Below, in pieces: positions 53,892-55,678 of a stretch of DNA of 64,000 nt (position 1 is its first letter; every line of letters starts with the position of its first letter). The DNA is from Rhizophagus irregularis. Its lineage: Eukaryota. Location of the stretch: the NCBI RefSeq assembly GCF_026210795.1, contig NC_089434.1, positions 1 through 64,000 of the forward strand, written 5' to 3'. A program made the translations under genes and the position numbers. The notes below the pieces were generated by a model. It was not told the DNA's origin. It saw only the letters and a list, made by a program, of their open reading frames with translations, and ran no database searches.

Positions 53892-55678
53892 TAAAGTTGC
53901 CTGCCGAAACCTATTTGGCCTAATGCCGAAAGGTGAAACCCCTTACATAGTGGTGAAATTGCGAAACCGCGAAACTGTGAAACTGCCGAAACTTGCGAAA
54001 CTGCCGAAACGTGCGAAACTGCCAAAATTTGCGAAACCTCTATAATTAAGTTTATCTATAGTTTCGGCATAACAAGCATTAATATTTTATATGAATTTCA
54101 CCATAGTTTTGCTATTCTAATATTTTTTAGCATTTTTTTTTTAATTTCAAATTGTCTAATAAATTTATATGTAATTAAAAAAAAATTATTGTAATTTTTA
54201 TTGTTTTACTTAATATTTTTTTATTTTATTATAATTATTACAATAATAAAGAGATTACATTTCTTTGAAGTAAACTCCCCAGTCCCCACCCGAGTTTTAT
54301 TCACCCAAATGTCCAATAATCTAAAAAAATAGAGAAAGAAACGTTAGTAACGTTTCTTTAATATTAAAAAAAAATCACCTCTCCCTTTTCCAACTAACAT
54401 TCCAAAGTCTGGGTTCGTCCAAGGAATCTGGCAACCTAATAAAAATAAAGAAACGTCAGTACGTTTCTTTAATATTTAAAAAAACTCCCCTTCCACCATT
54501 CCTTACATTCTAAGTCCAGGTTCGTCCAGGAGGCTATTTTTATTTCATTTCAACAGAATTCATGTCCCGAAAGAATGACTCTAAAGTAAAGAAAAAGGAC
54601 CGTTAGGTACGTTTCTACAATGAAAAAAAACCAACATTTCCCTTTTCAATCTACCGTTTTGCCAAATTCCCGGTTTGAAAGGCGCCCTAAAGTAAAAAAA
54701 GAGAAAAGGAACGTTAGATACGTTCCTACAATTAAAATTAAACAAGTTAAACAACACTTCTCCCTTTTCAACCTACCGTTTCACCGAATTCCAGGTTCAG
54801 AAGGTGCTCTAAAGTAAAAAAAGAGAAAAGGAACGTTAGGTATGTTTCTAAATTAAAATAAAACAACACTTCCCCCTTTCCAACCTACCATTACACCGAA
54901 TTCCAGGTCCGGAAGGCGCCCTAAAGTAAAAACAAAGAAAAGGAACGTTAGGTACGTTCCTAAATTAAAATAAAACAACACTTCCCCCTTTCCAACCTAC
55001 CATTTCGCCAAATTCCAGGTCTGAAAGGCACCCTAAAGTAAAAAAAGAGAAAAGGAACATTAGGTACGTTCTTAAATTAAAATAAAACAACACTTCCCCC
55101 TTTCCAACCTACTGTTTCACTGAATTCCAGGTCTGGAAGGTGCTCTAAAGTAAAAAAAGAGAGAAGGAACGTTAGGTACGTTCCTAAATTAAAATAAAAC
55201 CACACCTCCCCTTTTTCAACCTACCACTTCGCCGAATTCCAGGTCCGGAAGGTGTCCCTAAAGAAAAAAAGAGAAAAGGAATGTTAGTGACATTTCTACA
55301 AAAAAAATAAATAAATTAAAAACCCAACCTTTCATGTTTAGGGCGGGTTTATTTTTTCCAACTATAAACAATAAAAATGTTTTTTTTTAACCTTTTTTTT
55401 TTAATAAAAAAAAGATTATCAGATCAGTAAATTAGTACGATCAGTAAGTCATATGATGTACCGAAACTGATCAGAATAAAATCTGCAAACTGCAGATTAT
55501 AGTGTATGCCGAAACTATCTGTATATCATATGATATACTATGCCGAAACGTCAAAACAGTTTCGCAGGTTTTGGCAGTTTCAGCATTTCAGCATTTTAAG
55601 GCGATTTTGCGAAACTAGTTTTGGCAGTTTCGTATACACCATCTTGCCGAAACCTCCTAGTTTCGGCAAGCAACCTTA
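53892..55678. mobile_element. Non-autonomous hAT element, same TIR family as 14724-14967
   Basis: TIR TAAAGTTGCCTGCCGAAAC/GTTTCGGCAAGCAACCTTA; 8-bp TSD TAATGGAC at 53884-53891 and 55679-55686; GCGAAACT subterminal repeats. Confidence 0.95.
54321..55330 (-). repeat. ~112-bp tandem repeat (about 9 units), each with intron plus microexon architecture
   Basis: CTAAAG marker at 54581, 54687, 54809, 54921, 55033, 55145 and 55258. On the minus strand each unit reads GTAGGT..CCTAAC..(Y)n..TTTAG. Confidence 0.9.

What the first reader, a model, noticed from the sequence alone, without database searches (positions are those of the whole stretch)
54321..55330. Tandem array of canonical spliceosomal introns separated by 32-nt microexons inside a non-coding hAT element
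Seen: on the minus strand each 112-bp unit reads G|GTAGGT ... CCTAAC ... polypyrimidine ... TTTAG|. One example is an 80-nt intron at 54888-54809 beside a GC-rich 32-nt exon at 54920-54889. The splice signals are kept in most of the well-conserved units while other positions drift. The branch site sits in a 7-bp hairpin (GGAACGU-ACCUA-ACGUUCC). The element has no transposase and the exon length is not a multiple of 3. Established: GTAGGT, CTAAC and YAG are fungal splice consensus signals, and splicing modulates transposon silencing in several eukaryotes. Inference: the amplified unit is an intron-exon module, producing a heavily spliced non-coding RNA that could license the transcript, evade silencing or feed small-RNA pathways.
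Basis: partly seen in the sequence, partly recalled or inferred. Interest (0 to 1): 0.85.

Follow-up and report, generated by a model that had tools for sequence, protein, structure and literature searches.

The report
Transposon ends built from tandem introns
A jumping DNA element in a mycorrhizal-type fungus carries nine head-to-tail intron-like units separated by tiny non-coding pieces, and similar rows face inward from the ends of unrelated transposons; they likely make the element's RNA pass as a normal spliced gene, but no spliced read was found.

Summary
The array is real. It has nine GT-branch-AG units on the minus strand of a 1,787-bp non-autonomous element with 19-bp TIRs and an 8-bp target duplication; reads from empty sites confirm the insertion. 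Exons are 32 nt (five), 33, 37 and 74, with stops in all frames. The same unit forms arrays in 16 of 16 metagenome loci recovered by its motif, including both inverted arms of complete BED-hAT transposase elements. Across 12 arrays GT/AG differ from consensus in 18 of 274 cells, against 268 of 1,443 for exon sites. A Mutator element in this window has an unrelated seven-intron row in each 1.2-kb TIR, also facing inward, so the design seems to have arisen twice. Splicing is not shown: eight laid runs gave no array junction (host-intron control: 224 reads). The RNA strains lack this insertion, and the roughly 40 reads from related copies were unspliced and unstranded. Best reading: a multiply spliced non-coding leader at transposon ends that likely licenses the element's transcript; this copy looks decayed. 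Rivals: attenuation or exon trapping, neutral relic, DNA-binding array. Not found in print in eight searches.

The parts
53892..55678 (-). Non-autonomous hAT-type element, 1,787 bp, no transposase
   Evidence: TIRs and TSD; empty-site joint skipping 1,795 nt (element plus one TSD) in 65, 55 and 58 reads; longest stop-free frame 85 aa
55679..55686 (.). 8-bp target site duplication, left copy
   Evidence: 8 letters fit either side of the empty-site joint
53884..53891 (.). 8-bp target site duplication, right copy
55660..55678 (-). Left 19-bp terminal inverted repeat
   Evidence: same TIR in L001, L015 and in the MITE at 14724
53892..53910 (+). Right 19-bp terminal inverted repeat
55462..55650 (.). 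Left subterminal GAAAC repeats, likely transposase-binding sites (inference)
53955..54070 (.). Right subterminal GAAAC repeats
55329..55361 (-). Candidate first short exon (33 nt)
   Evidence: follows a TAG and precedes the first GT; weakest assignment
55258..55328 (-). Predicted intron 1 (71 nt, weak donor GTTGGG)
55225..55257 (-). Predicted exon, 33 nt
   Evidence: translated identically in R. irregularis gene model P0001
55145..55224 (-). Predicted intron 2 (80 nt), perfect branch hairpin; folds end to end, z -3.0
55113..55144 (-). Predicted exon, 32 nt
55033..55112 (-). Predicted intron 3 (80 nt)
55001..55032 (-). Predicted exon, 32 nt
54921..55000 (-). Predicted intron 4 (80 nt), perfect branch hairpin
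54889..54920 (-).
54809..54888 (-).
54777..54808 (-). Predicted exon, 32 nt
54687..54776 (-). Predicted intron 6 (90 nt)
54655..54686 (-). Predicted exon, 32 nt
54581..54654 (-). Predicted intron 7 (74 nt)
54507..54580 (-). Predicted exon, 74 nt
   Evidence: its first 12 codons match P0001 exactly
54436..54506 (-). Predicted intron 8 (71 nt)
54399..54435 (-). Predicted exon, 37 nt
54321..54398 (-). Predicted intron 9 (78 nt)
   Evidence: removed at the same boundaries in gene model P0002
54190..54320 (-). Candidate terminal exon with AATAAA 19, 90 and 118 nt after the last acceptor (weak in AT-rich DNA)
53673..53736 (+). Ordinary intron of the interrupted host gene (positive control); the element lies antisense to this gene
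   Evidence: GT..AG joint in 79, 49 and 96 reads
14724..14967 (.). 244-bp MITE with the same TIR family and its own 8-bp TSD, without any array
6636..12455 (+). Mutator-like element, 9-bp TSD, ~1.24-kb TIRs around a MULE transposase
   Evidence: PF10551 E 1e-18; arms 97.7% identical; TSD
6883..7871 (+). Left MULE arm: seven predicted introns with 58-85-nt non-coding exons, last three a 156-bp tandem repeat, reading inward
11222..12210 (-). Right MULE arm: mirror row of predicted introns, reading inward
16500..17290 (+). Decayed row of about five intron-like units upstream of a BED-finger-like ORF (17406)
   Evidence: profile hits E 0.018, 0.042, 0.25; zf-BED below cut-off; weak

Best explanation
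The repeat is a tandemly amplified cassette of one intron-like unit plus one short non-coding exon, lying just inside the end of a DNA transposon, and it is likely spliced as the leader of an RNA that starts in the element's end, so that the transcript would be handled like an intron-rich host mRNA and escape silencing. Shown: the anatomy; absence of a kept reading frame; the same cassette in related elements, on both inverted arms of complete hAT transposase elements, reading inward; an unrelated intron row in both TIRs of a Mutator element; splice positions conserved above their neighbours. Inferred: transcription from the element end; splicing; growth by tandem duplication (a 3-unit block was copied last); inheritance of the array by this non-autonomous element from a transposase-coding parent; the licensing benefit. 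This copy has CpG decay and is probably a silent relic.
For: Nine ordered GT/YTRAY/TAG units on one strand only. 142 units detected in 16 loci plus the window, with exon lengths of 18-75 nt and donors GTAAGT, GTAGGT, GTTGGT, GTAAGC. In 12 of 22 arrays kept as non-redundant (76 units; 66 donors and 71 acceptors placed with GT/AG masked): GT+AG mismatches 18 of 274 against 268 of 1,443 non-CpG exon cells; invariant columns 34 of 48 against 113 of 252 (p 0.0014); the donor, which was in no search pattern, 5 of 132; branch A 0 of 76 and T(-2) 0 of 76; nearly all changes at -3, -1 and +1 stay within YTRAY. Signals are near-optimal and introns short (median 80 nt). Arrays on both arms of L005, L008 and L013 are 90-93% identical and flank a hAT transposase. 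The window's MULE has 6 strict-grammar introns per arm against 0.1 in shuffles and shares only poly-T with the hAT unit; 17 of 23 strict-grammar introns in the 64 kb lie in these two elements. In Cryptococcus introns are needed for expression, and poorly spliced transposon RNAs feed RNAi (PMC5851062, passages).
Against: No splice junction in the array in 5 raw RNA runs (24-32% of each read) and 3 contig sets, while a host intron gave 224 junction reads. About 40 reads from related copies covered exon and flanking intron at nearly equal depth, i.e. unspliced. Three protein searches found only R. irregularis gene models, none from an unspliced-caller source that would imply a spliced contig, and these models pick shifting donors to stay in frame. 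The branch A is predicted to be paired and, in this family, the pyrimidine tract too, which would slow splicing. Leaders carry 2-8 ATGs per array. No clear acceptor links the last donor to the transposase start in L005 or L013. The 12 arrays fall into about six related groups, units share ancestry, and loci were found by a branch-plus-TTAG pattern, so the p values are optimistic. No autonomous partner with this TIR was found.
Confidence: 0.42

Rival explanations
1. The arrays are spliced but act as a brake or trap. Concealed branch sites slow the spliceosome and feed RNAi, upstream ATGs and frame-shifting exons cut transposase output, and inward-facing acceptors at both ends catch host read-through and end it before it crosses the element.
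For: Branch A predicted paired; donor-side purines pair with the pyrimidine tract in this family. One stem pair covaries: 37/8/2/6, p 0.003; non-partner controls not significant. Concealed branch sites regulate poison exons in animals (PMC11162794, abstract). Stalled splicing triggers siRNA in Cryptococcus (PMC5851062, passages). Two R. irregularis models join a Tsr1-like first exon to this family's exons. AATAAA follows right arms within 130-332 nt.
Against: Splice signals are near-consensus, not suboptimal. End-to-end pairing is absent in L003, L015, L004 minus and most L010 and L014 units. The second stem pair does not covary (p 0.25). The MULE rows have no such hairpin motif. The gene models are predictions. 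AATAAA is common in 75% AT DNA and also occurs 358-360 nt after left arms of L006/L013.
Confidence: 0.23
2. A neutral relic: one ordinary 5' intron of an ancestral transposon was multiplied by slippage or unequal exchange, as satellites are, and copied to the other end by inverted-repeat homogenisation; the signals persist through ancestry and conversion and are not used.
For: No junction reads and unspliced covering reads. A 244-bp MITE with the same TIRs moved without any array. CpG decay in the window's exons, 9 of 30 CpG cells. Mutated donors and acceptors occur, some shared by many copies. The window holds other large tandem arrays. Palindrome repair could mimic stem covariation (inference).
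Against: Signals persist while exon length, exon ends and intron bodies turn over between and within arrays. Changes in the branch motif stay within consensus. An unrelated intron row occupies the same position in a different superfamily.
Confidence: 0.2
3. A Foldback-type DNA cis-element: the unit is repeated as a binding site for transposase or a host DNA-binding protein (twin AACGTT palindromes, TGGA repeats) and only resembles an intron.
For: Position inside long inverted arms, as in Foldback and Tm1 elements (PMC3169594, passages). TGGA occurs 93 times against 30 in shuffles and in 12 of 12 arrays. Stem A/T positions are as invariant as the branch site.
Against: The element has separate GAAAC subterminal repeats matching its TIR. 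The unit is shared by elements with different ends. Donor, branch and acceptor are three separated motifs kept in order and spacing on one strand. The MULE rows lack both motifs.
Confidence: 0.1
4. A coding micro-exon gene: use of the GT four bases downstream gives 36-nt exons and a 12-residue repeat.
For: The +4 donor gives an open 12-codon unit in 3 of 5 exons, and gene models P0001 and P0002 use such donors.
Against: 2 of 5 exons have stops in that frame. Exon lengths modulo 3 are 15/25/13 of 53 across arrays, and joined exons have stops in 35 of 36 frames. No Pfam match for P0001.
Confidence: 0.04

Closest known systems
Foldback-like elements and long-TIR Mutator elements (Tm1, PMC3169594, passages read; PMC3310237, search listing and start of abstract)
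   Same: Long inverted ends built from variable numbers of tandem repeats. The listing of PMC3310237 states that long Mutator TIRs hold transposase sites and promoters. Two-armed L005/L013 and the window's MULE fit this layout.
   Different: Tm1 repeats are about 14-bp motifs; here each repeat is a 95-160-bp intron-plus-exon cassette with strand-specific splice signals. The window's hAT-type element has the array once, not on both arms.
Introner-like elements and sister (stw)introns of ascomycetes (PMC8469720, passages read)
   Same: Families of near-identical canonical introns with predicted hairpins that bring the two splice sites together, as predicted for the window's introns.
   Different: Those insert singly at new positions in unrelated coding exons. 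Here the intron is always followed by a homologous exon, head to tail, inside transposons; no dispersed solo copy was shown.
Splicing-coupled genome defence and licensing (SCANR in Cryptococcus, PMC5851062, passages; HUSH sensing of intronless RNA, search listings only)
   Same: A setting in which the presence and quality of introns decides whether a transposon RNA is expressed or silenced.
   Different: These are host systems. No transposon-borne intron array was described in what I read, and neither pathway was tested in this fungus.
Concealed branch-site stem-loops (PMC11162794, abstract read)
   Same: Branch site held in a stem-loop upstream of a short non-productive exon.
   Different: Single regulatory elements in animal host genes, not tandem arrays in transposons.
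Micro-exon genes of Schistosoma and codon-sized microexon arrays (recalled; also earlier scan notes)
   Same: Tandem near-identical introns separated by very short exons, grown by cassette duplication.
   Different: Those exons are multiples of three and coding; these are of any length and carry stops.
Glomhopper Crypton elements of Glomeromycota (PMC13465315, passages read)
   Same: Intron-bearing transposons in the same fungal group, partly supported by junction reads.
   Different: Introns lie in the recombinase gene. The text has no occurrence of 'tandem', 'untranslated', 'microexon' or 'hairpin'.

Membership tests
hAT superfamily (non-autonomous) | 8-bp target site duplication | tested here: met
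   Present here and at the MITE; empty site seen in 178 reads
hAT superfamily (non-autonomous) | Short TIRs plus subterminal repeats | tested here: met
   19-bp TIRs and GAAAC repeats; the fit to a hAT TIR consensus is recalled
hAT superfamily (non-autonomous) | Autonomous partner with the same ends encoding a hAT transposase | tested here: inconclusive
   None among 16 loci; L005/L013 have hAT transposases and the same array but different visible subterminal repeats, and their TIRs were not found; no genome held
U2 spliceosomal introns | GT donor, YTRAY branch, pyrimidine tract and YAG in order and at fungal spacing | tested here: met
   9 of 9 units; strand-specific and above shuffles
U2 spliceosomal introns | Signals conserved above neighbouring sites | tested here: met
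   18 of 274 against 268 of 1,443; units not independent
U2 spliceosomal introns | Excision seen in RNA | tested here: inconclusive
   No junction in 8 runs; insertion absent from RNA strains, low depth, unstranded reads, about 40 unspliced reads
Introner-like elements | Family of similar introns with stable predicted structure | tested here: met
   142 units; z -3.0 in 2 of 6 window introns folded, -0.05 to -1.5 in the rest
Introner-like elements | Dispersed single insertions into unrelated exons | tested here: not met
   All 16 loci show tandem arrays with homologous exons; a genome-wide search was not possible
Foldback-like elements | Long inverted arms made of tandem repeats | tested here: not met
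   The window's element has one array and 19-bp TIRs; met for relatives L005, L008, L013 and the MULE
Foldback-like elements | Repeats bind transposase | not testable with these tools
   Needs binding assays
Coding micro-exon genes | Exons keep a reading frame | tested here: not met
   Stops in all three frames; lengths modulo 3 unbiased toward 0
Known structured RNA families | Rfam match | tested here: not met
   0 matches at E up to 1 in 53800-55800

The most novel reading that the evidence does not exclude
DNA transposons of arbuscular mycorrhizal fungi have repeatedly evolved a new kind of terminal cis-element: tandem spliceosomal intron cassettes facing inward from their ends, in at least the hAT and Mutator superfamilies and from unrelated sequences. 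The cassettes recruit the spliceosome to disguise the element's RNA as a host gene and so evade an intron-sensing genome defence in fungi.
Probability: 0.3. Interest if true: 0.87.

Novelty: new variant of a known kind. Interest (0 to 1): 0.68.

Why it matters
If spliced, these arrays would be a transposon-encoded answer to splicing-based self/non-self discrimination, arisen at least twice in one genome. That would give a direct handle on whether introns license or betray transposon RNA in early-diverging fungi: splice sites and the hairpin can be mutated one by one. It also matters practically. Such arrays already produce 'unnamed protein' models in R. irregularis annotations (8 records), so they may inflate orphan-gene counts, and sense insertions could trap host exons.

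Tried and rejected
The run search listed no RNA holder on record; this is no evidence either way. Motif scans: viral contigs 0 and 1 hit (L017 is a chance match in GC-richer coding-like DNA); prokaryote genomes 0. Rfam: none. m6A-site idea rejected: DRACH 92 against 85 +/- 6 in shuffles. End-to-end intron pairing as a family-wide trait rejected. The 1,795-nt skip is the empty site, not splicing of the whole element (ends TA..TA, 8 shared letters). 'Goes back' and 'skips 137' joints come from unspliced related arrays. Gene models P0001-P0005 were not accepted as proof of splicing. Poly(A)-trap idea is weak. The ORFs next to arrays in L014 and L004 could not be assigned to a transposon family (no Pfam; unnamed eukaryotic clusters). 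The protein atlas was unreachable three times. Look-ups of earlier scan findings by place and sequence were empty. Dropped before counts: 10 of 22 arrays as near-duplicates; 6 degenerate units found only by a relaxed search; 10 of 76 donors and 5 of 76 acceptors that could not be placed.

Full report
Observation. The window is a 30% GC, transposon-rich chromosome end (telomere repeat 1-788). A translated stretch of it is 100% identical over 82% of the query to a Rhizophagus irregularis record, so I infer that species or a very close one. The array lies in an element at 53892-55678 with 19-bp TIRs, GAAAC subterminal repeats and an 8-bp duplication. Reads joining 53883 to 55679 (65, 55 and 58 in three runs) show the empty site in an allele or close paralogue. 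The element sits antisense in a plus-strand gene whose ordinary intron is spliced in the same runs. TRF gives 6.2 copies of 112 bp at 85%, with a 336-bp higher period.

Anatomy. Nine units carry GT, YTRAY and TAG in order: introns 71-90 nt, branch-to-AG 20-27 nt, exons 33, 32 (five), 74 and 37 nt; the joined exons have stops in all frames. An ordered grammar matches 6 times on the minus strand, 0 on the plus, and 0.56 on average in 500 shuffles. The quoted perfect hairpin is in 2 of 9 units, a stem of at least 5 bp in 6 of 9, and the branch A is its first paired base. In this family the purines after the donor also pair with the pyrimidine tract (z -3.0 in 2 of 6 introns folded), but this is not general. 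The five 32-nt exons changed at 9 of 30 CpG cells and 14 of 130 others; four core introns at 9 of 304 non-CpG cells. That fits a methylated, decaying copy (inference; mCG on R. irregularis transposons is reported in PMC8647823, passages).

Relatives. A branch-hairpin-plus-TTAG pattern recovered 16 metagenome loci. All hold tandem arrays of the unit, 142 units with the window's, in about six related groups. L001 and L015 have this TIR and L009 the same subterminal region. L005, L006, L008 and L013 carry the array on both sides of a hAT transposase (PF05699 E 1e-20; ZBED1-like) as inverted arms 90-93% identical, both reading inward; L007 and L016 show the right arm only. L014 and L004 have it upstream of ORFs that I could not assign. 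A 244-bp MITE at 14724 has the same TIRs and no array, so the array is not needed to move.

Conservation test. I kept 12 of 22 arrays as non-redundant (76 units) and placed 66 donors and 71 acceptors by their flanks with GT/AG masked. GT+AG differed from the array consensus in 18 of 274 cells, non-CpG exon sites in 268 of 1,443, donor +7 to +12 in 88 of 396; invariant columns were 34 of 48 against 113 of 252 (p 0.0014). The donor alone, in no search pattern, differed in 5 of 132. Branch A and T(-2) never changed, and nearly all neighbouring changes stayed within YTRAY. One stem pair covaried (37/8/2/6, p 0.003; 0.008 on 38 unique cores), the other did not (p 0.25), and non-partner controls did not. 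Units share ancestry and detection required a recognisable core, so these values overstate the certainty. Exon lengths modulo 3 were 15/25/13 of 53, joined exons had stops in 35 of 36 frames, and TGGA was enriched (93 against 30) in 12 of 12 arrays.

An independent case in the same window. A Mutator element at 6636-12455 (9-bp duplication, PF10551) has 1.24-kb TIRs, 97.7% identical. Each holds a row of predicted introns (seven on the left arm, six of them under the strict grammar, mirrored on the right) with 58-85-nt non-coding exons, reading inward; the last three are a 156-bp tandem repeat. They share only poly-T stretches with the hAT unit and have 2 TGGA in 598 nt. The strict grammar matches 6 times per arm against 0.1 in shuffles. 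Of 23 strict-grammar introns in 64 kb, 12 are in these arms and 5 in the finding. A decayed row upstream of a BED-like ORF at 16500-17290 is a weak third case.

RNA. No listed holder was on record as RNA (no evidence). Five raw runs (24-32% of each read) and three contig sets were laid at 85% or 80% likeness. Of 12 joints listed, the only one with splice ends is the host intron (79, 49 and 96 reads); none is in the array. Related copies were covered unspliced: 11 and 10 reads at both 54396 (intron) and 54410 (exon); 11 and 8 reads on exon 54808-54777 against 9 and 8 on its flanking introns. This counts against efficient splicing. But these strains show the empty site, depth on the array was mostly under 10 outside the hairpins, the libraries are unstranded, and the tool's power for 32-nt exons of diverged copies is unknown. 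Three protein searches found only R. irregularis gene models (1 of 36, 2 of 155 and 3 of 3 candidates). P0001 and P0002 join a Tsr1-like start (E 0.02) to this family's exons with shifting donors; I treat them as predictions.

Mechanism. I commit to a spliced, non-coding leader at transposon ends that likely licenses the element's transcript (0.42). The anatomy, non-coding state, distribution and signal conservation are shown; transcription, splicing and benefit are inferred. Near-consensus signals and short introns favour licensing over attenuation. In Cryptococcus introns are needed for expression and poor splicing feeds RNAi (PMC5851062, passages). Attenuation or exon trapping (0.23), neutral relic (0.20), DNA-binding array (0.10) and coding microexons (0.04) remain. 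I put the chance that such arrays are spliced in active elements at about two in three.

Comparison and novelty. It works like the repeat-built arms of Foldback and long-TIR Mutator elements (PMC3169594, passages), but the repeat is an intron cassette. It resembles introner-like introns (PMC8469720, passages) but is tandem, not dispersed. It differs from coding microexon arrays (recalled; earlier notes). Searches listed no paper describing tandem intron arrays at transposon ends. Term look-ups in PMC8647823 ('intron' 0, 'splic' 0), PMC10234402 and PMC13465315 showed no description. I read passages, not whole texts, and no supplements; repeat libraries there, Repbase and subscription journals may hold these elements. 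Verdict: a real and recurrent architecture, a new variant of a known kind, with splicing unproven; interest 0.68.

Noticed in passing
window 6636-12455: Mutator element whose 1.24-kb TIRs each hold a row of predicted introns facing inward, unrelated in sequence to the finding's unit; R. irregularis gene models are called on them.
   Followed up: yes
window 16500-17290: Decayed row of intron-like units upstream of a BED-finger-like ORF, weakly similar to the hAT-type unit.
   Followed up: partly
window 52800-53890 and 55687-56150: The interrupted host gene differs from RNA reads almost only one way: 38 of the 40 rows shown have A/T in the window where reads have G/C, in CA 15, CG 10, CT 10, CC 3 contexts, so not CpG-specific (213 rows not shown). 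Looks like hypermutation of the disrupted copy.
   Followed up: partly
window 14724-14967: 244-bp MITE with the same TIR family and an 8-bp duplication, itself between 154-bp inverted repeats at 13310-13463 and 15154-15307.
   Followed up: partly
window 54438-54475 (loose ends of reads): A transcript elsewhere in the RNA organism carries a hairpin fragment of this family between unique flanks, in 27-78 reads per run side in five runs; read on the plus strand it appears to form the end of a reading frame.
   Followed up: no
P0001 (CAB4492850.1), P0002 (CAB4446497.1): Two R. irregularis assemblies appear to have this element family just downstream of a Tsr1-like first exon, in sense; a natural test of exon trapping.
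   Followed up: partly
L004 500-1760 (+) and 7390-8250 (-): Two dissimilar intron arrays face inward on either side of an ORF cluster with no Pfam match; a pyrimidine-rich satellite lies between one array and the first ORF.
   Followed up: partly
window 23993-31013: 81-bp satellite of about 75 copies with a 242-243-bp higher period and strong strand skew, interrupted by an 80-bp repeat at 25287-25833.
   Followed up: no
window 1-788: Telomere repeat (TAACCC, 131 copies): the window starts at a chromosome end.
   Followed up: no
window 38604-39863, 43023-45455, 57003-58325, 36205-37221: Other mobile-element genes: type B DNA polymerase fragment, Transposase_21, Tc5/DDE_1 and hAT dimerisation domain.
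   Followed up: no
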